Source: an uncultured Methanosarcinales archaeon | GTDB lineage: Archaea > Nanobdellota > Nanobdellia > Woesearchaeales > JABIAG01 | Length of the DNA: 24,000 nt | Assembly (NCBI GenBank): GCA_964561995.1 | Contig: CAZLQZ010000001.1 | Span: forward strand, 20,867-44,866 | Reading direction: 5' to 3' | Shown here: piece by piece, positions 7 to 20,715 of the stretch | Numbering within the stretch: the first letter of the stretch is position 1 | How the letters are laid out: the number at the start of each line of letters is the position of its first letter | Translations under genes and position numbers: made by a program | Notes under the pieces: generated by a model | The model's database searches: none | The model's input: only the letters and a program-made list of their open reading frames with translations | Told to the model about the DNA's origin: nothing

Positions 7-660
7 ATGAAAAGATATGATTTACATGGGCATTCTTATTATTCAAAATGTTCTAATTTAAAACCTAAAATTATTTTAAAAAGAGCAAAAAAAAGAGGAT
101 TAAATGGTCTTGCAGTTACAGATCATAATACAATTAAAGGTGCAGTAGAAACAAAAAAGTTAAACAAAGATCCAAATTTTGAAGTTATTATTGGTGAAGA
201 AGTTATGACTAATAAAGGTGAAGTTCTTGCTTTGTATATTAATGAAGAAATTAAACCGGGAAAGTTTGAAGACGTAATTAAAGAAATAAAACAACAAGGT
301 GGAATTTCAATTTTAGCTCATCCTTTTAGTATGGTTGGTCTGCAAAGAAAAAGGGCATCTGGAAATATTTATGATAAAGTTGATGCTATTGAAGGTTTTA
401 ATGCTCGTTCATTTTTTAAGTTTGAAAATTATGAGGCTCAAATAAAAGCTAAAGAAATTGATAAACCTATTACTGCGGGTTCTGATTATCACTTTTGGTT
501 TGAAGTTGGACGTGCATATACAATGTTTGAAGGAGATTTAAAAACAGCAATTAAAGAGCACAAAACAAACATTAGGGGAAGTAATCTTTTTGCAATTCCT
601 GCTAGAATTATTACTTTTTTTCAAAAGTATATTATCTCTGCTCTAAAGAATTATAAATAA
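7..660 (+). CDS. PHP-domain metal-dependent phosphoesterase (217 aa)
   Basis: ATG at 7. DLHGHS (HxH), VTDHN, AHPF and GSDYH motifs occur in the order typical of PHP/histidinol-phosphatase-like phosphoesterases. The 3' end overlaps the convergent ADH gene by 29 nt. Confidence 0.75.
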   Translation: MKRYDLHGHSYYSKCSNLKPKIILKRAKKRGLNGLAVTDHNTIKGAVETKKLNKDPNFEVIIGEEVMTNKGEVLALYINEEIKPGKFEDVIKEIKQQGGISILAHPFSMVGLQRKRASGNIYDKVDAIEGFNARSFFKFENYEAQIKAKEIDKPITAGSDYHFWFEVGRAYTMFEGDLKTAIKEHKTNIRGSNLFAIPARIITFFQKYIISALKNYK

Positions 661-1816
661 TTTCTCTAATATCATTTTTGCTAAGGGGTGCGGGACTTCT
701 TTTCACACTTCCCTTTCTATAACCTAATGTGTCTAAAAATATTAATTCACAATCTTGTTGATTAAATGTTTGTTTAGTTTTATCTAAATCTAATAGTTTC
801 ATGTAATTAAAAATAGTTCTTACAAAATCACCATTTCCTCCAAGTAATCTAGAAACTTTCTCATATTTAGATTTTAATGTATCGCTGCCATTTTCAATTT
901 GTTTTTTTGAAGTTTCAGCCATTACGTAAGCTAATGATTGTCCATGATTTACTTCTGGAAATCTTGCAGAAATTGGATGAGAGATTGCATGAGGTACATG
1001 AGTTCCTATTAAGGTTAGAGCAATACCTGAAAAAATATCTGCATATATCATTCCTAGTTTATTATTAATGCCGTCTCCATTATATGATGCAATTAAATGT
1101 TCTCGTAAAGAGGTAAAAGCTGCTTCACAAAATTCTGCTGCTTCTGTTGTACAATCATCTCTTGTATAAACTTCTGCAGCATGACATAAAACATCAAAAC
1201 CAGTTGTAGCAATTACTTGGTCAGGCATTTTTCTTATAATATCTAAATCAATATAAGATTTTTTAGGTAATAATAAAGTGTTTTTTAAAGTCTTTTTTTC
1301 TAAAGTGTCAGTATTAGTGACTACTGCATATGGGGTTACGTGACTTCCTGTGCCTGAGGTAGTGCTACTTGCAACAATTGGGATGCCACTATCAAGTTCT
1401 TTTTTTTTTTCAACATAGTCCCAAACATCGCCATTTAAACTAACAGCAATTACTTTAGATGTGTCAATTACTGAACCGCCACCTAAGGCAAAAATCACGT
1501 CTGGTTGAAATTCTTTAGCTTTTTTCACTCCAGTCTTCATTTGTTTTAATGTAGGATTAGATGAAATATTGTCGTAATGAAGAGCATTTAATCCGTGTTT
1601 TTTGAATAGTTCATTGTAAATTGTTAAAAACCCATAATTTCTCATTGCTCTTGTTCCAGTACAAAACATAACTTTTTTTCCAAATTGAGTTAAACCTTTT
1701 ACAGTTTCTTCATGATTATTTTGTCCCACATGAATTTCTAAATTGTTAATGTAATCGATATTAGAATATTTTAAAAGTAATTCATCTAATCTTTCTTTTT
1801 CACTGTTTGTGTCCAT
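632..1816 (-). CDS. iron-containing (class III) alcohol dehydrogenase family protein (394 aa)
   Basis: GGGSVIDTSK nucleotide loop, SSTTSGTGSHVTPYAV, TGFDVLCHAAE and HAISHP metal-ligand histidine motifs characteristic of the Fe-ADH family. TTTATAAA at 1838-1845 lies about 26 nt from the ATG. Confidence 0.8.
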   Translation of the reverse strand: MDTNSEKERLDELLLKYSNIDYINNLEIHVGQNNHEETVKGLTQFGKKVMFCTGTRAMRNYGFLTIYNELFKKHGLNALHYDNISSNPTLKQMKTGVKKAKEFQPDVIFALGGGSVIDTSKVIAVSLNGDVWDYVEKKKELDSGIPIVASSTTSGTGSHVTPYAVVTNTDTLEKKTLKNTLLLPKKSYIDLDIIRKMPDQVIATTGFDVLCHAAEVYTRDDCTTEAAEFCEAAFTSLREHLIASYNGDGINNKLGMIYADIFSGIALTLIGTHVPHAISHPISARFPEVNHGQSLAYVMAETSKKQIENGSDTLKSKYEKVSRLLGGNGDFVRTIFNYMKLLDLDKTKQTFNQQDCELIFLDTLGYRKGSVKRSPAPLSKNDIREIIYNSLEQR

Positions 1817-1858
1817 AAATTTAGTAAGAAATATACGTTTATAAAGATTTTTGATAAA

Positions 1859-2491
1859 TTATCGGTTCATTTGAATGCCAAGATAATAAAATACAAATAA
1901 AATGCCTGAAATCAAAACTGAAATTTGTAATGATAAAGTTAAATAATTTAAATTAAATAAATTAAACAAATAAAATGCGATAATTGTTGGATAATATAAA
2001 AACGCCGAATTAGCTCTCGGTTTAATAATCCAATTTGTTTTTTTATATTCATTAAAATAAATTATTGCAAATATATTTGTATGTCCAAATAATATTATGA
2101 AAAAAATGATTAGTAATGGTTCTACTGAATAACTTATGAATGTTGAAGCAATTAAAAAAACAGTAAATATATCTACTGAAATATCTAAAAATTTACCTTT
2201 GTCAGACATTCTTCTCATATGTCTTGCCAGTACTCCATCAAAACTGTCTAATAAGAGTGAAGCAGTCACTAAAATTATGGCAGTTGTTTTATGTGTATTA
2301 TACAAAATAAAGAACATTATTGTTAAAAACAACCTAAAGCTTGTAATCATGTTTGGAGTTATTCCAATTTTAGAACAAGAACCTACAAATGGTTTAAGAA
2401 ATTTATTTCTAAATCTTCTATTTCCCTTATATAATTTATAATAAATTAATCTGTAAAAAGGATTCCATTTTTTTTTAATTAGTTTAAGCAT
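1859..2491 (-). CDS. CDP-alcohol phosphatidyltransferase family membrane protein (210 aa)
   Basis: DSFDGVLARHMRRMSDKGKFLDISVD fits the D-x2-DG-x2-AR-x8-G-x3-D-x3-D signature. Polytopic hydrophobic profile. The start is 1 nt after the stop of the upstream paralog, suggesting an operon. Confidence 0.8.
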   Translation of the reverse strand: MLKLIKKKWNPFYRLIYYKLYKGNRRFRNKFLKPFVGSCSKIGITPNMITSFRLFLTIMFFILYNTHKTTAIILVTASLLLDSFDGVLARHMRRMSDKGKFLDISVDIFTVFLIASTFISYSVEPLLIIFFIILFGHTNIFAIIYFNEYKKTNWIIKPRANSAFLYYPTIIAFYLFNLFNLNYLTLSLQISVLISGILFVFYYLGIQMNR

Positions 2492-2492
2492 T

Positions 2493-3050
2493 TTATATTC
2501 CTTTTAAAATTTCTTTTCTATGCCAATAAAGAAAATTACCTGCATATCCTAGTGAGATTAATGCCACAATTAAGTTAATCCAAAATACTAAAGTTTGATT
2601 AAAAAATACAATACTTCCTGCTAAATTAAAATACATAAAAAATAAGGTATAAATAATTACTGCTGATTGCATTAAAAATTTACTTTTACCCATCCAATTT
2701 GCCCCTACTACTTTTGTTGGTTTTGAACAAACTTGTCTAATGCCTGTAACTAAAAATTCTCTGCATAATACAATTAATACTATCCATAGTGGAATTATTT
2801 TTAAGTCTGAGAAAGCAAAGAATATTGACAAAATTAGCATTTTATCTACTAAAGGATCAAAGAAAGTTCCAAAAATAGACTTAAGATTTCTTTTTCTTGC
2901 AATTTGTCCATCTAATCTATCTGTATATATTGCAATTAAAAATACTGCTATACTTGCAAGAATATAATTGGCGTTATTAGAATACATTAACCAGATTATC
3001 ACTGGAATCAATATTGCTCTAAACATTGTTAACTTATTAGGTAAATTCAT
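2493..3050 (-). CDS. CDP-alcohol phosphatidyltransferase family membrane protein (PgsA-like; 185 aa from ATG at 3050)
   Basis: DRLDGQIARKRNLKSIFGTFFDPLVD fits the CDP-alcohol phosphatidyltransferase signature. The ORF-track start at 3128 is a TTG (plus strand reads caa) and would overlap the divergent gene. The in-frame ATG at 3050 gives the family-typical N-terminus MNLPNKLTMFR and sits about 26-29 nt from a TATA element. Confidence 0.8.
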   Translation of the reverse strand: MNLPNKLTMFRAILIPVIIWLMYSNNANYILASIAVFLIAIYTDRLDGQIARKRNLKSIFGTFFDPLVDKMLILSIFFAFSDLKIIPLWIVLIVLCREFLVTGIRQVCSKPTKVVGANWMGKSKFLMQSAVIIYTLFFMYFNLAGSIVFFNQTLVFWINLIVALISLGYAGNFLYWHRKEILKGI

Positions 3051-3072
3051 TAATGCTTCTTTTTGAACAAAG

Positions 3073-3085
3073 TTTTTAAATATTT
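3073..3085. promoter_or_regulatory. candidate shared TATA element between divergent leaderless genes
   Basis: TTTTTAAATATTT lies roughly midway between the minus-strand ATG at 3050 and the plus-strand ATG at 3104 (54 nt apart), about 25-29 nt from each. Confidence 0.4.
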
Positions 3086-3103
3086 CGAAATTATCTACTA
3101 GAT

Positions 3104-3547
3104 ATGAATCTAAAAATACTAAATTCAAAGGAATTAAAAGAAATAAGAAGAAAAATAGAAGAACAATATGGTATAACTGAAAAATTCCCTTACGTTTTTT
3201 TACTTTCAGAAAAAGAAGATATTTACATTATTAATGATGAAGTAAAAAATATAGACCTAGATAAATTAAATATTAATACAATTGGTATTTATTTTGGTCA
3301 AGTTAGAAATGATTTTAGACCTAGTCTTGAAGGTTCTCAAATAATTGGTAAATTTGTAAAAAAAAATATTTTAGAAGTTGATGATAAAGTTGCTAAAATG
3401 TGGATGTATGGGTTAGATATTCCTTGTAAAGAAGAATTAACTGGCTATGTTATTATAAAAAATAAAGATAACTTTTTAGGTTCAGGAAGGTATAAGGGAG
3501 GGATGATTTTAAATTTTGTTCCTAAAGGTAGAAGAATTCACGAGTGA
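3104..3547 (+). CDS. NIP7-like / PUA-domain protein (147 aa), putative ribosome-biogenesis or RNA-binding factor
   Basis: Overall pattern resembles NIP7/UPF0113: an N-terminal helical part (EIRRKIEEQYG), a central IGIYFG...FRPSLEG, and a C-terminal PUA-like GYVIIKNKDNFLGSGRY. Recognised from memory of the family, not searched. Confidence 0.5.
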   Translation: MNLKILNSKELKEIRRKIEEQYGITEKFPYVFLLSEKEDIYIINDEVKNIDLDKLNINTIGIYFGQVRNDFRPSLEGSQIIGKFVKKNILEVDDKVAKMWMYGLDIPCKEELTGYVIIKNKDNFLGSGRYKGGMILNFVPKGRRIHE

Positions 3548-5096: not shown

Positions 5097-5135
5097 TTAT
5101 TTTTCAAATTGTTTTTAACTTATTTTTCAAATTGT
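5097..5135 (+). repeat. two direct copies of TTATTTTTCAAATTGT (5097-5112 and 5120-5135), candidate origin-recognition-box-like elements
   Basis: Exact 16-nt direct repeat with 23-nt periodicity in the 141-bp intergenic region immediately upstream of orc1/cdc6. Confidence 0.45.
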
Positions 5136-5202: not shown

Positions 5203-6279
5203 ATGTCAATGTTTAAAGATATGCTAAAGGATACTGAATCTTTATTTACAGGAAATGTGGAAGCACTCGATTTTGATTATATTCCTAAATTAATTCCTTT
5301 TAGAGAAAATGAACAAAGAGAGATTGCTACTTGCATTAAACCTATTTTTCAAAAAAGAAATGGAAGAAATATTTTAGTTCACGGTAAACCCGGAATTGGA
5401 AAAACAGTTGCAATTAAACATTTATTAAAAGATTTGGAAGATGAAACGGATGATATTTTGTCAGTTTTTATTAATTGTTGGCAAAGTAATACTACTTATA
5501 AAATCATGCTTGAAATTTGTGAACAATTAGGGTATAAATTCATTCAAAATAAAAAAACTGAAGATTTAGTAAAAGTAATAAAAGAAATAATTAATAAGAA
5601 TGCAGGTGCCGTTTTTGTTTTTGATGAAATTGATAAGGCTGAAGATTCAGACTTTTTATATACTTTATTGGAAGTTATATTTAGAAAATCTATTATTATT
5701 ATAACAAATTATAAGTCTTGGTTTACAGACCTTGATGAAAGAACTAAATCAAGATTAATTCCTGACTTATTAGAATTTAAAGAATATAATGAAAAAGAAA
5801 CAATTGAAATTTTAAAACAAAGAATGAAATATGCTTTTGTTTCAGGTGTTTGGGATGACGATGCTTTTTTGATGCTTGCAAAAAAGTCCACTCAATTAAA
5901 AGATATACGAACTGGCTTATATTTGATTAAAGAGGCAGGTCAACATGCAGAAGACCAATCCAAAAAACGAATAGAAAAAGAAGATGCCAAAATTGCACTT
6001 TCAAAACTTGAAAGTTTTTCAATAAAAAATAGTGCTAGTTTAATCGATGTTGAAAAAGAAATTCTTGATATGATTAAAAAAAATACTGGAACTAAAATCG
6101 GGGACCTATTTAAATTATATTCTGCAAAGGGTAAAGATATTAGTTACAAAACCTTTCAAAGAAAAATTAAAAAATTAGAAGAAGGAAAGTTTATTTTCAT
6201 TAAAAAGGTAGGTGGTGGAACTGAAGGTAAAACTTCAATTATTAATTATGGTGAAAGTAAAAAATTGACCGATTTTTAA
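5203..6279 (+). CDS. cdc6: Orc1/Cdc6 replication initiator AAA+ ATPase (358 aa)
   Basis: N-terminal LIPFRENEQREI, Walker A HGKPGIGKT, Walker B VFVFDEID, and a C-terminal winged-helix-like region. This is the typical archaeal Orc1/Cdc6 architecture. Confidence 0.9.
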   Translation: MSMFKDMLKDTESLFTGNVEALDFDYIPKLIPFRENEQREIATCIKPIFQKRNGRNILVHGKPGIGKTVAIKHLLKDLEDETDDILSVFINCWQSNTTYKIMLEICEQLGYKFIQNKKTEDLVKVIKEIINKNAGAVFVFDEIDKAEDSDFLYTLLEVIFRKSIIIITNYKSWFTDLDERTKSRLIPDLLEFKEYNEKETIEILKQRMKYAFVSGVWDDDAFLMLAKKSTQLKDIRTGLYLIKEAGQHAEDQSKKRIEKEDAKIALSKLESFSIKNSASLIDVEKEILDMIKKNTGTKIGDLFKLYSAKGKDISYKTFQRKIKKLEEGKFIFIKKVGGGTEGKTSIINYGESKKLTDF

Positions 6280-6330: not shown

Positions 6331-9300
6331 ATGTCTTTAGAAGATTCTCTAAAAGATAATGAAGTTCTATTAACGCAGGTAGCTGTAAGAGATAATCAGC
6401 AATCTTCTCAACAACTTCAGTTAAGGTTTAAAGGATTGTCTGATGTTTATGTTCCTTATCAACACACTTATTTTTCCATTCCACTTTCTCAAACAGAGGC
6501 ACAAGATTTAATTGAACAAATTCAAAATCCACTCATTAACGGCCAGAAAAATCCCTTTTATGGTTACCAGCATACTAAAACTTTGGTGCAAGGATATTTT
6601 AACATAGTTCAAGTTACTGCTCCAAGAACCGAATCTAAAGCTTTTCAAAGATTAAGATATAAAACAAGATGTGGTGAGTTTAATTTAAGTTCTTTAAAAA
6701 GTAAAGGAAAAAAATTATTTAGGGGTGGCTATTTTAATAGACAAGCACGTTGGAACTTACAAGACGAAGAAAACTATTTGTTGCCAGGTATAATTGTAGA
6801 AACGGATAATGAATTAATTACAATTTTAGAAAAAAAAAGACAGTTGGATAAATTAAATAGTTCTTTAGATAAAATAAGAAGACATACAAAGGTTGGTTTT
6901 AAACAAGGTAGTTATTCTGGACAATGGAGTAATGCTGTTTCACGTTATAAAAAACTATTAAAATCTGACAATAGTTTTAATGCTAAAAAATCATTTCAAG
7001 AAACTAAATCTTTTTCATATTTAAATCAAGAAACAATTGAATTAATTGAAGATATAAACTCTTATGAAAATAGTTTTGAAACTTTAATTCGTGGCTTTGG
7101 AGATTTAGATTATAATTACAATTCAATTAAAAAGAAAGGAACTTATGGGTTATTTCTTAATCAAAGGCCAACTTTAAAATTCAAAAGACAGCTAACACTT
7201 GATGAATGGATGAATTTAAAGTTCATGTTTTTTGATATTGAAACTCCTAAATTTTTAGAAAATAATTATGAAGTTACTCAAGTTGCCGCAATTTTAACAG
7301 AAAATCAACAAGTAAAACAAAGAATAGTTTTTAATAAACAGGCAACAAAGATTACTGAAGTAAAAGGACATACAATTCGTTCAGGTTATGATACCGACAG
7401 AGACATGATTGGAGATATTTCAAATTGGGCCTTACAGAACGATATTGAAGTTATTTCGGCTTACAATATCAATTTCGATGCTTCTATGTTAAAAGAAAGG
7501 GGCGATCTTTATGTTGGCGAGGCCGAAGATGAACCAAAAAAAGATGTTACTAAAAAATTCTTTGAAAGATTTAGGATGGATGGTGGTTTTTGTGTAGACC
7601 TTTTAAGGTTAGGTCAAACTTTTTTAAGGGGATTTGCAAATGCTAAACTTGAAAATTTGTCTAGATTTTTTGGAGGTATGAGTGGATATAGAAAAACAAT
7701 TTCGTATGCTGAAATGGCTGAACTTCAATATCTTTCGGAAGGAATTGATGTAGAGCTTAGTTCATCAACAAAAGAAAAGCTTGAAACAATTCCTGGAAAT
7801 AGGGAAGTTGCAGCTCAAAGATTAATTTTAGAATATGTTTGTGATGATACTGAAGAAATGCCGAAATTATTATTTGGAGATTCAAATAAATTTCAAGAGA
7901 AAGAATTAACAAGAAATTGTTTGGAAAATTTAGTTTGGATGGCTGAAAATTTCAAACTTGATTTTATAAAATTACTTTATTCTCCTACTGCTTTAAGAGA
8001 TGTTTTTGATAGGGGCTACTTTAAACATATGGGAATACAAAGAGATGAGATTTATCCGAGAGGCATTAAATATTTTGAAAATGAAGTTAATAATAACAAG
8101 AACGCTTTGAAAGGGTTTATGAACAATTTGTTTGGGATTGAATCTAGTAATGGAACTTTTCATAGGGTGGAAAGAAGATTAATTCCGGTAGGATTTTTAT
8201 TAAGACATTATTTATCTAAAAAAACTCATTCAGTAAGAGATTTTATGGGTTATGTTGAAGAAAGAGTTCAAAAAGGAAGTCATCATGAATTTGTTTTTCT
8301 TTCACATTATGTTAATGGGTTAGCGGATTATATGTTGACAGATTTTGGGTCTTATTTAAGAACAAAAAAAAGATATGACCAAATCTTTTCTAAATTGACA
8401 ACTGAGCAACCTTATAAAGAAACGGTTTTAGGATTAAATGAACTTTTTTTACATAGGTATGGAAGGACTAGATTAGGTTTACAAATGGCAAATGGTGTGC
8501 TAGGGGAAGTTTTAAGTCAAGGAATTTATGATAGGGAAGGAAATTATAGAATTGTAAAAGCTGCAGATATTAAACATTTAAAAGAATTGAATCAATTTAG
8601 ATCTTTTGTTAAAAATTCTGGAAATAATTTTTTAGATATGCTTTTAGAATCAAATAGACTTACAACTTTAGAATTGTATAAACTTTTTTGGACTACATTT
8701 TATTTGGGTAGTAGTACTTCTAAAAATTTTGGAAATCATTTGATACATCCTGCAAGTATGGCAATGCATTTTGAAAATGAAGCAATGGCAATAAAAGAAG
8801 ATTTGAATAAATATGGTGAAATTTTATCTGTAAATTCTCCTTATGTTTATTTTCTTCCAGAAAAAAATGAATCTGATTTTTCAAAGTCTGTGGTAAATAG
8901 AGTTACTAATTCAAAAAGAGTTTATTGTTGTCCTGCTCAAACTGTGATTGAAGATTTATTTATTGCAGATAAAGAATATTCTAAGGAAGACGGTTTTTTT
9001 AAAGGAGTTAAGATTAAAGATGGTCCAGCTTATTTTTCAAATGCATTTTATTCTAATATTTATCTTAATACTTTAGAACATTTTTGGCAAGAAGATTATG
9101 TTTCTGGGATTAGAGGTATTATTTCAGCATTTAAAGATTTGAAGTCAAAAAGAATAGTAACTGAAGATGAAAAAATGAATTTTTTGTTTTTTAATAAGTC
9201 TAAGAAATGTTATTTTGGTTTTCAAGATTTTGAGAAATATATGTTTAGATTGGCAGAAGATGAAGAAGAAGATAAACTTCCAGTTCATCCTATTTCTCAA

Positions 9301-9522
9301 TTTAATCCAGATTATTCAATGTATTTATGGGACTTTTCAAGAAAAATAAAACCTTTTATTAAATCTTTAATTCCCAAAGTTCAAGAAAATTTTTCTGTTG
9401 ATGAGTTAAGAATTATTGAACAAATTGTTAAAATTAAAAAGCCAAAAAAGCCTTCTCTCGACGATTTACCTTTATTCACTGGTCAAGGTGTGTCCAGTGG
9501 TGAAACCGTTTTAAACCTTTGA
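6331..9522 (+). CDS. divergent family-B DNA polymerase-like protein (1063 aa) with canonical 3'-5' exonuclease motifs and non-canonical polymerase motifs
   Basis: Exo I LKFMFFDIET (D302/E304), Exo II AYNINFDASML (N381/D383) and Exo III LEYVCDD (Y502/D506) occur with PolB-like spacing. The N-terminal VYVPYQHTYF resembles the PolB N-domain. No DxxSLYPS or YxDTDS motif; only degenerate look-alikes (DFIKLLYSP, KGFMNNLFG, YMLTDFG). TTTTAAAG (6303-6310) lies about 26 nt upstream of the ATG. Confidence 0.7.
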   Translation: MSLEDSLKDNEVLLTQVAVRDNQQSSQQLQLRFKGLSDVYVPYQHTYFSIPLSQTEAQDLIEQIQNPLINGQKNPFYGYQHTKTLVQGYFNIVQVTAPRTESKAFQRLRYKTRCGEFNLSSLKSKGKKLFRGGYFNRQARWNLQDEENYLLPGIIVETDNELITILEKKRQLDKLNSSLDKIRRHTKVGFKQGSYSGQWSNAVSRYKKLLKSDNSFNAKKSFQETKSFSYLNQETIELIEDINSYENSFETLIRGFGDLDYNYNSIKKKGTYGLFLNQRPTLKFKRQLTLDEWMNLKFMFFDIETPKFLENNYEVTQVAAILTENQQVKQRIVFNKQATKITEVKGHTIRSGYDTDRDMIGDISNWALQNDIEVISAYNINFDASMLKERGDLYVGEAEDEPKKDVTKKFFERFRMDGGFCVDLLRLGQTFLRGFANAKLENLSRFFGGMSGYRKTISYAEMAELQYLSEGIDVELSSSTKEKLETIPGNREVAAQRLILEYVCDDTEEMPKLLFGDSNKFQEKELTRNCLENLVWMAENFKLDFIKLLYSPTALRDVFDRGYFKHMGIQRDEIYPRGIKYFENEVNNNKNALKGFMNNLFGIESSNGTFHRVERRLIPVGFLLRHYLSKKTHSVRDFMGYVEERVQKGSHHEFVFLSHYVNGLADYMLTDFGSYLRTKKRYDQIFSKLTTEQPYKETVLGLNELFLHRYGRTRLGLQMANGVLGEVLSQGIYDREGNYRIVKAADIKHLKELNQFRSFVKNSGNNFLDMLLESNRLTTLELYKLFWTTFYLGSSTSKNFGNHLIHPASMAMHFENEAMAIKEDLNKYGEILSVNSPYVYFLPEKNESDFSKSVVNRVTNSKRVYCCPAQTVIEDLFIADKEYSKEDGFFKGVKIKDGPAYFSNAFYSNIYLNTLEHFWQEDYVSGIRGIISAFKDLKSKRIVTEDEKMNFLFFNKSKKCYFGFQDFEKYMFRLAEDEEEDKLPVHPISQFNPDYSMYLWDFSRKIKPFIKSLIPKVQENFSVDELRIIEQIVKIKKPKKPSLDDLPLFTGQGVSSGETVLNL

Positions 9523-9587
9523 ATTCTTGATTCTTAACAGTTTATTTATAAGTGAAAAAAACCCATTGGACATCTTCTGAAATAGGG

Positions 9588-9595
9588 TATATAAA
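9588..9595 (+). promoter_or_regulatory. candidate TATA box (TATATAAA) for the micro-ORF cassette or a small RNA
   Basis: Near-consensus archaeal TATA. The predicted TSS near 9618-9620 lies upstream of the hairpin at 9634 and the first SD at 9683. Confidence 0.3.
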
Positions 9596-9633
9596 GGATT
9601 TAGTGTATCTAATAATTATTGTTTTAAGAATTA

Positions 9634-9675
9634 GGGCAGGGATTACCCCCAATTAAACCTGCCCGGGATTTTTTT
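9634..9675 (+). terminator. GC-rich hairpin followed by T7 tract (terminator or attenuator-like element)
   Basis: GGGCAGG (9634-9640) pairs perfectly with CCTGCCC (9658-9664) around a 17-nt loop, followed by T7 at 9669-9675. It lies 112 nt after the PolB-like stop and 19 nt before micro-ORF1. Confidence 0.5.
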
Positions 9676-9693
9676 ATAACAAGGAGGAGAAAA

Positions 9694-9801
9694 ATGATAG
9701 ACTTAAGCCAAAAAACCATACAAAATTTGTTTTTTAATCAAATAAAAGAGTTAAGCGTTGATAGCTTTGAAATGCAATGTAGTGAGTGGTGGTTAAGATG
9801 A
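9694..9801 (+). CDS. micro-ORF1, 35 aa (MIDLSQKTIQNLFFNQIKELSVDSFEMQCSEWWLR)
   Basis: ATG at 9694 is preceded by AAGGAGGAG (9681-9689), complementary to the 16S 3' end CACCTCCT, with the same short spacing as the SD of the gene at 17769. The TGA stop overlaps the next ATG (ATGA). Below the 60-aa cutoff of the ORF track. Confidence 0.4.
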   Translation: MIDLSQKTIQNLFFNQIKELSVDSFEMQCSEWWLR

Positions 9802-9905
9802 TGGAAATAGATGAGTTCGCAATTGGACTAGTAGAAGAAGCACAACATATTGGAGAATTAAGTTTTGATGAAGCTGAATTTATAATTGGCTATATTTCAT
9901 CATAG
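9798..9905 (+). CDS. micro-ORF2, 35 aa, very acidic (MMEIDEFAIGLVEEAQHIGELSFDEAEFIIGYISS)
   Basis: ATG at 9798 overlaps the ORF1 stop (translational-coupling geometry). Shares an I-x-ELS-[VF]-D-x-x-E core with ORF1 at nearly the same position. The TAG stop is embedded in the next SD (TAGGAGGTG). Confidence 0.4.
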   Translation: MMEIDEFAIGLVEEAQHIGELSFDEAEFIIGYISS

Positions 9906-9919
9906 GAGGTGAAAAAATC

Positions 9920-10027
9920 ATATTCAAAAAAAAGAATTACATATCATGGGACGAGTACATATGCAAAGTACACGTATTAGAAAACTTTGTTTGGAAACAA
10001 AGTACTAGAAGAACTTTCTTGCCTTAA
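9920..10027 (+). CDS. possible micro-ORF3, 35-36 codons, basic (IFKKKNYISWDEYICKVHVLENFVWKQSTRRTFLP); non-canonical start
   Basis: A perfect SD, AGGAGGTGA (9904-9912), is followed at 4-7 nt only by near-cognate codons (ATC 9917, ATA 9920). From ATA the frame is again exactly 108 nt and stops at 10025-10027, at the foot of the terminator hairpin. No ATG/GTG/TTG start is available, so the call is weak. Confidence 0.2.
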   Translation: MFKKKNYISWDEYICKVHVLENFVWKQSTRRTFLP

Positions 10028-10072
10028 ACACCTCAAAAATGCACCTCTTGCCAGGAGGTGTTTATTTTTTTT
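10026..10072 (+). terminator. hairpin plus T8 terminator-like element with two alternative 5' arms
   Basis: AAACACCTC (10026-10034) pairs with GAGGTGTTT (10055-10063). An inner CACCTC (10042-10047) can pair with the same GAGGTG (10055-10060). T8 at 10065-10072. Confidence 0.55.
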
Positions 10073-10116
10073 AATATATGCAAAAGGTTTTTAAATAATC
10101 TTTCAATAAAATAAAC

Positions 10117-12360: not shown

Positions 12361-13823
<1,463 letters not shown>

Positions 13824-14006
13824 TTTTATTTTTTTTTATAAAAAATAAAATAATATATCAAAAATAGTGCAATATTTTTGTGACTCAAAATTGTTTAACA
13901 ATTTTAAGAAATCAAAAAAGAAATGGAATCTCTTTTTTGTAACTACTAATGTAGTTTATTTCAATCTGCTTTTTTATAATCATTAGGACTATACCTTTTG
14001 CTTGTA

Positions 14007-14078
14007 GGGCCTGTAGTTCAACGGTAGAACGTCGCCCTTGCAAGGCGGAGGTTTCGGGTTCAAATCCCGACGGGTCCA
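14007..14078 (+). tRNA. tRNA-Ala (anticodon UGC), 72 nt, no encoded CCA
   Basis: Hand-folded cloverleaf: acceptor GGGCCTG/CGGGTCC with the G3:U70 alanine identity pair, anticodon loop CT-TGC-AA (TGC at 14039-14041), T-arm TCGGG-TTCAAAT-CCCGA, discriminator A. Lies in the canonical archaeal 16S-23S spacer position. Confidence 0.95.
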
Positions 14079-14255
14079 TTTCAATCATCATATTCATTTA
14101 TTGAAAACTCATCGAGAACTAAACACTCTTGATGAACGGTAGAGTTGTGATCATCATAGGATGACTTTGCAGAAGTCCTATGAGTAACAAATATTACATT
14201 ACGTTAATATTACATCATGTTATTTCACAATTATGAAGCCATGCATAGTATAGAT

Positions 14256-17154
<2,899 letters not shown>

Positions 17155-17174
17155 TTAACTATGCATGGCATTCA

Positions 17175-20148: not shown

Positions 20149-20715
20149 CTATTTTCTTGGGGAGTTTTGGAATTTAATTACTTCTTTTTTTTCTTTAATT
20201 CCTTTTTCTTCCATTAAATTTTGAAAATTTAAGAAAACTTCATTTGTTGCTAAAACATCACTCATTGCTCTGTGTGCTTGAGAATTAATTATGTTAAAAT
20301 GTTGACAAATTGTTCCTAATTTTTTACTTGGTAAATCAGGAAGTAATCGGTTTGCTAATCTTCTTGTACAAATTCTATCATTAATTAGTCCTTCTTCAAG
20401 ATATTTTTTTTTATTATGATCTATGAAGCCATAATCAAAAGTTGCATTGTGTGCAATTATTACGTCTTCTTTTAAGAAATCAATAAAATGTGGTAAAACT
20501 TTACTTAATGTTGGTGCAGATTCAACCATTTTATTATTAATTCCTGTCAATTTAGTGATAAAGGGAGGTATTGATACTTTAGGGTTGACTAATGTTTGAA
20601 ATTCATCAACTATTTTCTTATCTTTTACTTTTACTGCTGCAATTTCAGTAATTTTATGATAATGTTTACTTAATCCGGTTGTTTCAAGGTCTAATACAAT
20701 ATAAGGAAAACTCAT
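20149..20715 (-). CDS. DEDDh 3'-5' exonuclease (DnaQ/epsilon-like), 188 aa
   Basis: Exo I IVLDLETTGL, Exo II IIAHNATFDYGFI and Exo III HRAMSDVLAT (H-x4-D) in canonical order and spacing. Confidence 0.85.
   Translation of the reverse strand: MSFPYIVLDLETTGLSKHYHKITEIAAVKVKDKKIVDEFQTLVNPKVSIPPFITKLTGINNKMVESAPTLSKVLPHFIDFLKEDVIIAHNATFDYGFIDHNKKKYLEEGLINDRICTRRLANRLLPDLPSKKLGTICQHFNIINSQAHRAMSDVLATNEVFLNFQNLMEEKGIKEKKEVIKFQNSPRK

What the first reader, a model, noticed from the sequence alone, without database searches (positions are those of the whole stretch)
6331..9522. PolB-like protein with canonical proofreading motifs but no canonical polymerase motifs A or C, next to Orc1/Cdc6
Exo I (FFDIET), Exo II (YNINFD) and Exo III (YVCDD) are textbook family-B motifs with normal spacing, and LKFMFFDIET closely mirrors archaeal PolB. 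Downstream I find no DxxSLYPS, no K-x3-NSxYG and no YxDTDS. There are two competing readings. In (a), DFIKLLYSP (545-552), KGFMNNLFG (594-602) and YMLTDFG (667-673) are compressed, degenerate motifs A, B and C, with LTD retaining the last Asp. In (b), SPTALRDVFDRGYFKHMG aligns to the post-Exo III segment of archaeal PolB, so that motif A falls on VERRLIPVGF with no Asp. Either way the palm domain is atypical. The protein also has an insertion of about 130 aa (residues about 160-290) before Exo I, an extended C-terminal region, and a C-terminal SLDDLPLF that weakly resembles a PCNA-interacting peptide. Inactivated PolB paralogs (PolB2-type) are known in archaea. A version sitting in the origin/Orc1 neighbourhood of a reduced genome raises the question of whether it is the replicase, a proofreading-only subunit or a structural paralog.
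Basis: partly seen in the sequence, partly recalled or inferred. Interest (0 to 1): 0.65.

Follow-up and report, generated by a model that had tools for sequence, protein, structure and literature searches.

The report
Proofreading-only PolB relative in DPANN archaea
This gene from a tiny-celled (DPANN) archaeon encodes a protein with the complete shape of a family-B DNA polymerase and an intact proofreading nuclease, but without the acidic residues that make DNA, and it belongs to a sizeable, previously unnamed family.

Summary
ORF 6331-9522 (+, 1063 aa) has textbook Exo I, II and III motifs and no canonical motifs A, B or C.

It is still a full-length PolB homolog. An AlphaFold model (pLDDT 90.5) matches only family-B polymerases end to end. 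hhalign against real PolBs gives 98% probability over residues 128-1020.

In that alignment the motif A Asp falls on L617. Motif C (YGDTDS) falls on SVNSPY (833-838). The KxY motif and thumb motifs are kept.

Reading (a) is wrong: DFIKLLYSP is the post-Exo III segment, and YMLTDFG lies in a long helix I assign to the fingers.

The protein is not an orphan. A profile search found 124 cluster representatives. In 86 full-length members the exonuclease residues are invariant or nearly so, and no acidic residue is conserved at motif A or C. Forty percent end in a Q-x-x-L-F type clamp-binding motif.

Named members are "hypothetical protein" from Woesearchaeota. The genes sit among housekeeping genes, and none was found in viral contigs.

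The best reading is a clamp-tethered 3'-5' exonuclease with a dead polymerase site. This is a new variant of "inactivated PolB", the mirror image of PolB2. No activity has been tested.

The parts
6331..9522 (+). Gene for the 1063-aa PolB-like protein (P0001)
   Evidence: ORF list and translation. Full-length PolB fold by AlphaFold and Foldseek. hhalign to real PolBs gives probability 98.3%.
6331..6801 (+). N-terminal domain, residues 1-157, beta-rich
   Evidence: AF2 secondary structure with pLDDT 90-97. hhalign with P0128 as master starts at residue 26.
6802..7089 (+). Helical insertion, residues about 158-253, between the N-terminal domain and the exonuclease domain
   Evidence: Helices 160-186, 194-212 and 215-252 in the AF2 model. 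It is the least conserved segment but is present family-wide: a median of 137 residues separates the columns of G153 and D302.
7090..7875 (+). 3'-5' exonuclease domain (DEDDy), residues about 254-515
   Evidence: Pfam PF03104, PHROG 192 and archaeal PolB structures at E=2.4e-12. D302, E304, D423, Y502 and D506 are invariant, and N379 and D383 are at least 93% conserved, in 86 members.
7228..7245 (+). Exo I, FFDIET (D302, E304)
   Evidence: Aligns to D156 and E158 of E. coli Pol II. Invariant in the family.
7462..7479 (+). Exo II, YNINFD (N379, D383)
7834..7848 (+). Exo III, YVCDD (Y502, D506)
   Evidence: Invariant in the family. Position confirmed.
7876..8151 (+). Post-exonuclease helical segment, residues 516-607. 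It contains DFIKLLYSP and FDRGYFKHMG and is not motif A.
   Evidence: hhalign aligns it to the segment after Exo III of true PolBs.
8152..8196 (+). Strand equivalent to motif A, GTFHRVERRLIPVGF (608-622). The catalytic Asp position is L617.
   Evidence: D419 of Pol II, D392 of gp43, D536 of P0128 and D343 of the haloarchaeal PolB all map to L617. The family has Y or F at this column. AF2 predicts strand 608-617 with pLDDT about 95.
8281..8748 (+). Enlarged fingers-like helical region, residues 651-806. It includes YMLTDFG (D671) and a poorly predicted tip at 709-733.
   Evidence: Helices 651-691 and 779-803 in the AF2 model. The motif B segment of Pol II aligns to 791-804, with only G801 kept. 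D671 is conserved in 67 of 86 members.
8815..8859 (+). Beta-hairpin equivalent to motif C (residues 829-843). YGDTDS aligns to SVNSPY (833-838).
   Evidence: D545 maps to N835 and D547 to P837 with three different master sequences. In the family, column 837 is Asp in 10 of 86 members and column 835 is acidic in 34 of 86. AF2 predicts strands 829-835 and 838-843.
8968..8982 (+). Equivalent of the KxY motif, DKEYS (K881, Y883)
   Evidence: KKRY of Pol II and KKKY of P0128 map to K881 and Y883. The family consensus is K-[IV]-Y-Y.
9040..9450 (+). Thumb domain, residues about 904-1040
   Evidence: hmmsearch aligns the family profile to thumb residues 620-665 of archaeal PolB 1qqc. The C-terminal half alone aligned by hhalign gives E=1.8e-5, against P=0.23 for a reversed control. 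D994 and Y998 match the PolB 'D..Y' thumb motif.
9451..9519 (+). Disordered C-terminal tail, residues 1041-1063, with the private insertion SLDDLPLF and the terminal ETVLNL
   Evidence: pLDDT below 50. Q-x-x-h-F or Q-x-x-h-x-[FLI] occurs in the last 12 residues of 34 of 86 members, against about 1.5 expected. ETVLNL resembles QSVLNL of P0022.
5203..6279 (+). Orc1/Cdc6-type AAA+ gene immediately upstream. It is a neighbour and is not shown to be functionally linked.
   Evidence: Pfam AAA_22, AAA_16 and Cdc6_lid. The same arrangement occurs in the loci of relative P0004.

Best explanation
The gene encodes a full-length structural homolog of family-B DNA polymerases. It has the N-terminal domain, exonuclease, palm, fingers and thumb. 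The DEDDy 3'-5' exonuclease site is intact, but the polymerase site has lost both metal-binding aspartates: the motif A Asp is Leu617, and motif C DTD is N835-S836-P837.

The protein belongs to a previously unnamed family of DPANN archaea (Woesearchaeota/Nanoarchaeota). In this family the exonuclease residues are invariant and the polymerase carboxylates are not conserved. The primer-binding KxY motif, the thumb and, in many members, a C-terminal sliding-clamp-binding motif are retained.

The most likely mechanism is as follows. The dead polymerase body still grips a primer-template junction, probably tethered to PCNA. The exonuclease then trims the 3' end. The protein would thus act as a stand-alone proofreader or 3'-end processor working beside the real replicase, presumably PolD.

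Shown: homology, fold, loss of the catalytic residues, conservation pattern and family extent. Inferred: exonuclease activity, lack of polymerase activity, PCNA binding and the cellular role.
For: - Fold: AF2 with an 86-sequence alignment gives pLDDT 90.5 and pTM 0.90. All top Foldseek hits in PDB and BFVD are family-B polymerases aligned over their full length, for example Pol delta at 4e-13, E. coli Pol II, KOD and P. abyssi PolB with TM up to 0.52.
- Sequence: hhalign of the family against 8 real PolBs gives probability 98.3% and E=2e-14 over residues 128-1020. The C-terminal half alone gives E=1.8e-5, and a reversed control gives 0.23. The profile hits the archaeal PolB exonuclease and thumb in PDB.
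- Catalytic residues: the motif A Asp maps to L617 and motif C D-T-D to N835-S836-P837, consistently with different master sequences. Family columns have Y or F at 617, Asp in 10 of 86 at 837, and no acidic column conserved at motif A or C.
- Exonuclease: D302, E304, Y502 and D506 are invariant, D383 is 99% and N379 is 93% conserved.
- DNA binding: KxY is kept as K881 and Y883, and the thumb D994 and Y998 are kept.
- Selective constraint: the palm and thumb are conserved about as well as the N-terminal domain, so the dead module is under selection.
- Clamp motif: 34 of 86 members carry it, against about 1.5 expected.
- Context: cellular and housekeeping. No relative was found in viral contigs.
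- Another replicase probably exists: Pacearchaeota carry both PolD subunits (PMC8204110), and B7 PolBs are reported in Woesearchaeota and Pacearchaeota (PMC7544198).
Against: - No biochemistry exists for any member.
- PolB2 was also predicted to be inactive and later shown to polymerise. Primer-independent PolBs work without the first motif C Asp (PMC7544198).
- I could not inspect model coordinates, so an unconventional active site built from other acidic residues (D671 at 78%, D560, D572, E at column 907) is not excluded.
- The residue mapping in the palm rests on low-identity profile alignment plus the order of secondary-structure elements.
- All hhalign mappings use one reference alignment of 8 sequences, so 'different master sequences' is not fully independent evidence.
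- The window's own protein has only a degenerate terminal motif (ETVLNL).
- I could not survey the rest of this genome for PolD or another PolB.
Confidence: 0.62

Rival explanations
1. It is an active DNA polymerase, replicative or translesion, that uses a non-canonical active site, as happened with PolB2/Dpo2.
For: PolB2 was predicted inactive but is an active translesion enzyme, and piPolB lacks the first motif C Asp (PMC7544198, read). The full PolB fold, KxY motif and thumb are retained and conserved. D671 is acidic in about 81% of members.
Against: Both metal-ligand positions, not just one, are non-acidic here, and neither is conserved in the family. The motif B Lys, Asn and Ser are absent. 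No acidic column in the C-terminal half is invariant, whereas the exonuclease residues are 99-100% conserved. D671 lies mid-helix in the region I assign to the fingers, not in the palm sheet.
Confidence: 0.17
2. It is a purely structural, non-catalytic scaffold of the replisome, like the C-terminal half of Pol epsilon, and the exonuclease motifs are only residual.
For: The gene sits next to Orc1/Cdc6 here and in one relative. Inactivated PolB modules with essential structural roles are known, for example the Pol epsilon C-terminal half (PMC7544198, PMC2669801).
Against: All DEDDy residues are invariant or at least 93% conserved across 86 members that share only about 20% identity. That is the signature of a maintained active site. 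The inactivated Pol epsilon C-terminal module has lost its catalytic residues.
Confidence: 0.1
3. It is a polymerase of a virus, plasmid, casposon or other mobile element integrated in the chromosome.
For: PolB genes are common in mobile elements. The best PHROG hit is a phage 'DNA polymerase exonuclease subunit'. On a haloarchaeal plasmid a Cdc6 gene lies two genes upstream of a PolB gene.
Against: Neighbours are housekeeping genes: the rRNA operon, Sua5, lipid synthesis genes, ribosomal proteins, RNA polymerase subunits and aIF5B. Synteny is conserved among relatives. No relative was found in 2.9 million viral contigs. GC content is the same as in the flanks.
Confidence: 0.04
4. It is only a PolB-type exonuclease domain fused to an unrelated C-terminal domain.
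For: Pfam and single-sequence searches see only the exonuclease domain.
Against: Foldseek aligns the whole length to PolBs. hhalign of the C-terminal half alone is significant. hmmsearch aligns the thumb to 1qqc residues 620-665. The order of helices and strands from 807 to 973 follows the order of motifs in the Pol II alignment: palm helix, motif C hairpin, KxY strand and thumb helices.
Confidence: 0.02

Closest known systems
Archaeal family-B DNA polymerases of the B1/B3 type (Thermococcus, Pyrococcus and Desulfurococcus PolB; PDB 1qqc, 1tgo, 4flt)
   Same: These are the best sequence matches in PDB, at E=2.4e-12, with both the exonuclease and thumb segments aligned. The domain order and fold are the same, with Foldseek TM up to 0.52. 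Exo I-III, the KxY motif and the thumb D..Y motif are shared.
   Different: The catalytic Asp residues of motifs A and C and the motif B K/N/S are missing. There is an extra helical insertion of about 95 aa before the exonuclease domain and a much enlarged fingers region. Pfam PF00136 does not detect the protein.
PolB2 (archaeal B2 group, e.g. Saccharolobus Dpo2), the classical 'inactivated' archaeal PolB
   Same: It is a PolB paralog with substitutions in catalytic motifs, found in cellular archaeal genomes.
   Different: The pattern is the reverse. In B2, Exo I is not conserved, Exo III is missing and one motif C Asp remains (PMC7544198). Here the exonuclease is intact and both polymerase Asp positions are lost.
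C-terminal half of eukaryotic Pol epsilon (inactivated polymerase-exonuclease module)
   Same: A PolB fold retained under selection after loss of the polymerase catalytic residues.
   Different: In Pol epsilon C the exonuclease is also inactivated, and the module is fused to an active PolB (PMC7544198, PMC2669801). Here the exonuclease residues are invariant and the protein stands alone.
E. coli DNA polymerase II and the archaeal B7 (Pol II-like) group reported in Woesearchaeota and Pacearchaeota
   Same: hhalign aligns the protein over its full length to Pol II. Pol II ends in QLGLF, the same type of C-terminal motif as in 40% of the family. The host phyla are the same as for B7 (PMC7544198).
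   Different: Pol II has all catalytic motifs. The family profile scores much lower against Pol II (21 bits) than against archaeal PolB (49 bits).
Separate proofreading subunits (bacterial DnaQ/epsilon; exonuclease subunit of split phage gp43, PHROG 192)
   Same: The proposed way of working is the same: exonucleolytic editing carried out by a polypeptide that does not itself polymerise. PHROG 192 matches residues 277-449.
   Different: Those proteins are small exonuclease-only polypeptides. This one keeps a complete, though catalytically stripped, polymerase body.

Membership tests
Family-B DNA polymerase (structural superfamily) | DEDDy exonuclease domain with Exo I, II and III | tested here: met
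   Pfam PF03104 above its cut-off. D302, E304, N379, D383, Y502 and D506 are conserved. They align to the Exo I residues of Pol II, gp43 and P0128.
Family-B DNA polymerase (structural superfamily) | Overall fold and order: N-terminal domain, exonuclease, palm, fingers, thumb | tested here: met
   AF2 pLDDT 90.5. Foldseek returns only PolBs, aligned over full length. hhalign probability 98.3% over residues 128-1020.
Family-B DNA polymerase (active enzyme) | Motif A (DxxSLYPS) with the catalytic Asp | tested here: not met
   The Asp position maps to L617. The family has Y or F there.
Family-B DNA polymerase (active enzyme) | Motif C (YxDTDS) with the catalytic Asp | tested here: not met
   D-T-D maps to N835-S836-P837. 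In the family, column 837 is Asp in only 10 of 86 members.
Family-B DNA polymerase (active enzyme) | Motif B (KxxxNSxYG) in the fingers | tested here: not met
   Motif B aligns to YLGSSTSKNFGNHL (791-804), and only G801 is kept. The alignment in this region is of low confidence.
Family-B DNA polymerase (active enzyme) | KxY primer-binding motif | tested here: met
   K881 and Y883 align to KKRY or KKKY. The family consensus is K-[IV]-Y-Y.
Family-B DNA polymerase (active enzyme) | Match to Pfam DNA_pol_B (PF00136) | tested here: not met
   There is no hit at E<=10 for this protein. None of 46 family members hits at E<=0.01.
Family-B DNA polymerase (active enzyme) | DNA-dependent DNA synthesis | not testable with these tools
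   This needs a primer-extension assay.
PolB2 (B2 group, 'inactivated' archaeal PolB) | Degenerate exonuclease (Exo I not conserved, Exo III missing), a single Asp left in motif C, and a group-specific D(K/R) motif (PMC7544198) | tested here: not met
   Exo I and Exo III are invariant here. No Asp lies at motif C.
Pol epsilon C-terminal-type inactivated module | Both the polymerase and exonuclease sites are inactivated, and the module is fused to an active PolB | tested here: not met
   The exonuclease residues are intact. The protein is a stand-alone ORF.
Mobile-element PolB (casposon, protein-primed or viral) | Location in a mobile element with cas1, terminal inverted repeats, terminal protein or viral genes | tested here: not met
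   Neighbours are housekeeping genes in the window and in 8 related loci. The viral-contig scan found nothing.
Sliding-clamp client (PIP-box or clamp-binding-motif protein) | C-terminal Qxx[LIM]xx[FY][FY] or the short QLxLF-type motif | tested here: inconclusive
   The family is strongly enriched: 34 of 86 members against about 1.5 expected. This protein ends in ETVLNL, without the Gln. SLDDLPLF is not conserved. Binding to PCNA was not tested.
Orc1/Cdc6 (upstream neighbour 5203-6279) | AAA+ ATPase module, Cdc6 lid and C-terminal winged helix | tested here: inconclusive
   AAA_22, AAA_16 and Cdc6_lid hit. No Cdc6_C winged-helix hit was listed at E<=0.01.

The most novel reading that the evidence does not exclude
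In a whole branch of DPANN archaea (Woesearchaeota/Nanoarchaeota), the vertically inherited archaeal PolB has been converted into a clamp-tethered, polymerase-dead proofreading exonuclease. It would edit 3' ends made by another enzyme, such as PolD or primase. In at least some lineages it may be the only PolB left. That would mean the conserved role of PolB in PolD-containing archaea can be exonucleolytic or structural rather than synthetic.
Probability: 0.25. Interest if true: 0.8.

Novelty: new variant of a known kind. Interest (0 to 1): 0.62.

Why it matters
Inactivated PolB relatives are known, but the known ones have lost the exonuclease (PolB2) or both activities (Pol epsilon C-terminal half). 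A family that keeps a fully conserved proofreading site, the DNA-gripping parts and a clamp-binding tail, yet drops both polymerase metal ligands, would be a natural "exo+ pol-" PolB.

Its members are long proteins annotated only as hypothetical, and Pfam's polymerase model does not see them. Surveys of archaeal replication genes therefore probably miss them.

If the exonuclease works in trans, this bears on an open question: what PolB is for in archaea whose essential replicase is PolD. It would also offer a simple, testable system for extrinsic proofreading. The activity assays are straightforward.

Tried and rejected
- Single-sequence searches gave nothing beyond the exonuclease domain: phmmer against PDB, NCBIfam and Pfam.
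- The first AlphaFold run, with only 5 sequences, was unusable (pLDDT 53). It was replaced by the 86-sequence run.
- Two further word-indexed homolog searches with alignments returned only the same 5 close relatives plus one true PolB.
- A scan of GTDB genome contigs with the close-family alignment found nothing. The broad alignment was too divergent to derive search patterns.
- Viral and metagenome contig scans added no new loci.
- My own first guess was wrong. I proposed DFGSYLR (671-677) as motif A and K784-LFWTTFYLG as motif B. I dropped this after the AF2 model put D671 inside a long helix and hhalign placed motif A at 608-617 and motif B near 791-804.
- I tried to extend the window by looking up its edge genes, so as to search for PolD or another PolB. 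No exact products were on record.
- I looked for an origin signature near orc1 and in the 595-nt gap after the gene. I found only a 2-copy direct repeat and weak AT-rich inverted repeats, and no Rfam hit.
- tblastn of the family against 39 Woesearchaeota/Nanoarchaeota rRNA loci found no member there.
- Literature searches found no description of such a family.


Full report
**Setting.** The window is archaeal. It holds a 16S - tRNA-Ala - 23S operon at 12361-17157. GC content is about 27% outside the rRNA genes. A lineage-specific 29-nt stretch of the 16S occurs in 39 GTDB genomes, and more than two thirds of them are titled Woesearchaeota, Nanoarchaeota or Nanoarchaeia. The best full-length 16S identity among these is only 84.5%. 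The organism is therefore a deep-branching DPANN archaeon of the Woesearchaeota/Nanoarchaeota radiation. The finding is the ORF 6331-9522 (+), 1063 aa. It lies 51 nt downstream of an Orc1/Cdc6-type AAA+ gene at 5203-6279, which has the Cdc6 lid domain. Sua5 and a metallophosphoesterase follow it.

**Check of the observation.** DFIKLLYSP is at 544-552, one residue off. There is no DxxSLYP, no KxxxNSxYG, and no DTD in the C-terminal half. Pfam reports only DNA_pol_B_exo1, at 26.5 bits against a cut-off of 23 and E=5e-6, covering residues 295-395. It reports no DNA_pol_B. PHROG 192, 'DNA polymerase exonuclease subunit', matches residues 277-449 at E=1.3e-9.

**A family, not an orphan.** The word-indexed search found only four relatives, at 33-50% identity. 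An HMM of these five, run against 1.84 billion cluster representatives, found 124 proteins at E<=1e-3, of which 70 were at E<=1e-30. Most are 850-1200 aa long. I aligned 86 full-length members (A2). D302, E304, D423, Y502 and D506 are invariant. P306, N379, D383, P402, F410, K439, L440, K455, Y459 and G608 are at least 90% conserved. None of 46 members scanned matches Pfam DNA_pol_B, and 10 match the exonuclease model. The few source names are 'hypothetical protein', including one from Candidatus Woesearchaeota (MBW3002521.1).

**It has the whole PolB fold.** With the 86-sequence alignment, AlphaFold2 gives mean pLDDT 90.5 and pTM 0.90. With five sequences it gave only 53. All top Foldseek hits against PDB are family-B polymerases aligned over their full length. 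They include yeast Pol delta (E=4e-13), E. coli Pol II, and KOD, Tgo and P. abyssi PolB with target TM up to 0.52. The viral library likewise returns mainly DNA polymerases among its named hits. The family profile hits archaeal PolB structures at E=2.4e-12 in two stretches: the exonuclease domain, and thumb residues 620-665 of 1qqc.

For a residue-level comparison I assembled eight real PolBs from annotated records:
- E. coli and Variovorax Pol II
- two T4-like gp43 proteins
- three haloarchaeal plasmid PolBs
- the delta-like protein P0128

The canonical motifs were confirmed in the five non-haloarchaeal references; in the three haloarchaeal PolBs only motif A was found by the patterns used. 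hhalign of the family against this set gives probability 98.3% and E=2e-14, with P0001 residues 128-1020 aligned to Pol II residues 11-774. The C-terminal half alone (556-1040) still scores E=1.8e-5 against the polymerase half of the references, whereas the reversed profile scores 0.23. The idea of an 'exonuclease domain fused to something else' is therefore refuted.

**Where the polymerase motifs fall.**
- *Motif A.* The motif A Asp (D419 of Pol II, D392 of gp43, D536 of P0128, D343 of the haloarchaeal PolB) maps to L617 in the strand GTFHRVERRL. The family has Y or F at this column, followed by a conserved P619-x-G621.
- *Motif C.* YGDTDS maps to S833-V834-N835-S836-P837-Y838. This is the turn of a confidently predicted beta-hairpin, with strands 829-835 and 838-843. 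In the family this reads [HA]-[QK]-[EQN]-G-x-Y. Column 837 is Asp in 10 of 86 members, and column 835 is acidic in 34 of 86.
- *Motif B.* It aligns weakly to 791-804, and only a Gly is kept.
- *Retained motifs.* KKRY maps to D880-K881-E882-Y883, with family consensus K-[IV]-Y-Y. The thumb 'D..Y' motif maps to D994 and Y998.

The secondary-structure order from 807 to 973 is: long helix, hairpin, short helix, three strands, two thumb helices, strand. In the hhalign alignment this follows the order of the Pol II palm helix, motif C, KKRY and thumb. My recollection of the archaeal PolB structure agrees with this order, but that is memory and not a test.

No acidic column in the C-terminal half is invariant. 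The best are E at column 907 (85%, Tyr in this protein), D994 (84%) and D671 (81%). So reading (b) is right and reading (a) is wrong.

**Is the dead module under selection?** Within the close clade, the palm and thumb are 30-67% identical to P0001, close to the N-terminal domain (53-55%) and below the exonuclease domain (55-63%). Family-wide information content is 1.4-1.5 bits for the palm, 1.6 for the exonuclease and 1.4 for the N-terminal domain. The high AF2 confidence also requires coevolution signal across the polymerase half. The module is maintained, not decaying.

**C-terminal tail.** In contrast, 34 of 86 members carry Q-x-x-[LIMV]-F or Q-x-x-[LIMV]-x-[FLI] within their last 12 residues. 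Examples are QLELF, QLSLF, QGELF and QLELSL. About 1.2-1.8 such matches are expected, and the maximum in 500 tail shuffles was 8. E. coli Pol II ends in QLGLF. From established knowledge, that is its beta-clamp-binding motif, and archaeal PCNA clients carry related C-terminal PIP motifs. P0001 ends in ETVLNL, which resembles QSVLNL of P0022 but lacks the Gln. Clamp binding is thus a reasonable inference for the family and only tentative for this protein.

**Context.**
- Orc1/Cdc6 is adjacent in the window and in the four loci of the relative P0004, where a 182-aa ORF lies between the two genes. Sua5 and the metallophosphoesterase are conserved downstream.
- Sua5 also lies downstream of the gene for P0003.
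- More distant members sit among other housekeeping genes. An HhH-GPD glycosylase lies divergently upstream of P0011, P0037 and P0043. DnaG and an RNase H-like gene lie near P0037.
- aIF5B lies near P0005 and P0022. Ribosomal protein genes lie near P0022 and RNA polymerase subunit genes near P0010.
- No relative was found in viral contigs.

The Orc1 link is therefore local to this clade. It does have a precedent of the same kind: on a haloarchaeal plasmid a Cdc6 gene lies two genes upstream of a PolB gene. I found no convincing origin signature. There is only a perfect 16-nt direct repeat, in two copies 23 nt apart, upstream of orc1.

**Which enzyme replicates the genome?** I could not read the rest of the 231-kb contig. 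The literature reports both PolD subunits in Pacearchaeota (PMC8204110) and Pol II-like B7 PolBs in Woesearchaeota and Pacearchaeota (PMC7544198). Another study names Baldrarchaeia and Aenigmatarchaeota as the only lineages that lack DP2 while keeping DP1 (PMC12680538). It is thus likely, but not shown, that these organisms have another replicase.

**Interpretation.** The most economical reading is a PolB-derived protein that still binds primer-template DNA through the KxY motif and thumb. It is probably tethered to the sliding clamp and uses its intact DEDDy site to trim 3' ends. Its own polymerase site is dead. It would act as a stand-alone proofreader or 3'-end processor.

Shown here are the homology, the fold, the loss of both carboxylate positions, the conservation asymmetry and the extent of the family. 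Inferred are the activities and the role.

The main rival is a non-canonical active polymerase. The history of PolB2 is a warning on this point (PMC7544198). However, here both ligand positions are lost, and nothing acidic is conserved in the palm. A purely structural role is disfavoured by the invariant exonuclease residues.

**Novelty.** I found no description of such a family in the searchable literature. The library does not cover all journals. The category 'inactivated PolB' is known, but the configuration 'exonuclease kept, polymerase lost, stand-alone' differs from PolB2 and from the Pol epsilon C-terminal half. I rate it a new variant of a known kind, of moderate to high interest, and readily testable.

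Noticed in passing
window 5097-5135: A perfect 16-nt direct repeat, TTATTTTTCAAATTGT, occurs twice, 23 nt apart, about 70 nt upstream of the orc1/cdc6 start. It could be an Orc1 binding site, an operator or a promoter element. A third copy with 2 mismatches lies at 36-51, and that count is not above chance.
   Followed up: partly
window 9523-10116: A 595-nt stretch with no convincing ORF lies between the PolB-like gene and Sua5. Relatives (L001, L006) have only tiny called ORFs at the same place. There is no Rfam match at E<=1 and only weak AT-rich inverted repeats.
   Followed up: partly
window 12361-17157: The rRNA operon is 16S - tRNA-Ala(TGC) - 23S, with no 5S detected in the window. The 16S is at most 84.5% identical to the GTDB representatives that share its 29-nt signature, which suggests a lineage without a close sequenced representative.
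   Followed up: partly
window 20149-20715 (-); L005 4539-5084: A separate RNase_T/DnaQ-like DEDDh exonuclease gene lies in the window. In the locus of relative P0005, an RNase_T-family gene directly follows the PolB-like gene on the same strand.
   Followed up: no
L007 9299-9934, L009 9319-9951, L012 9331-9948: An HhH-GPD (endonuclease III-type) DNA glycosylase gene lies divergently, 50-70 nt upstream of three distant family members (P0011, P0037, P0043). This could point to a repair role, or it could be inherited synteny.
   Followed up: no
P0037 and P0045 C-termini: Some family members carry an extra Cys/His-rich C-terminal extension instead of the Q-x-x-L-F tail. One member gave a weak SWIM zinc-finger Pfam hit.
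   Followed up: no
protein residues 655-677 (window 8293-8361): The motif F-L-S-x-Y-x-x-A-L-A-x-[WY]-[LIM]-x-x-D-[YF]-G (D671 in 67 of 86 members) is among the best conserved stretches of the C-terminal half. It sits inside a long helix assigned to the fingers, and its role is unexplained.
   Followed up: partly
L011 10104-13493: An ORF of 1129 aa with no Pfam hit at E<=0.1 lies 3 kb downstream of family member P0022, in a ribosomal-protein neighbourhood.
   Followed up: partly
window 632-3128 (-): This is an archaeal lipid-synthesis cluster. It holds an Fe-ADH-type gene (probably glycerol-1-phosphate dehydrogenase) and two CDP-alcohol phosphatidyltransferase genes. A related arrangement with CarS occurs in L006.
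   Followed up: no
L015 2177-4869 (Aeromonas phage AS-zj): In this phage the T4-type PolB is annotated as two adjacent CDSs, both called 'core DNA polymerase of replisome'. This is a natural split into an exonuclease-bearing part and a polymerase-bearing part.
   Followed up: no
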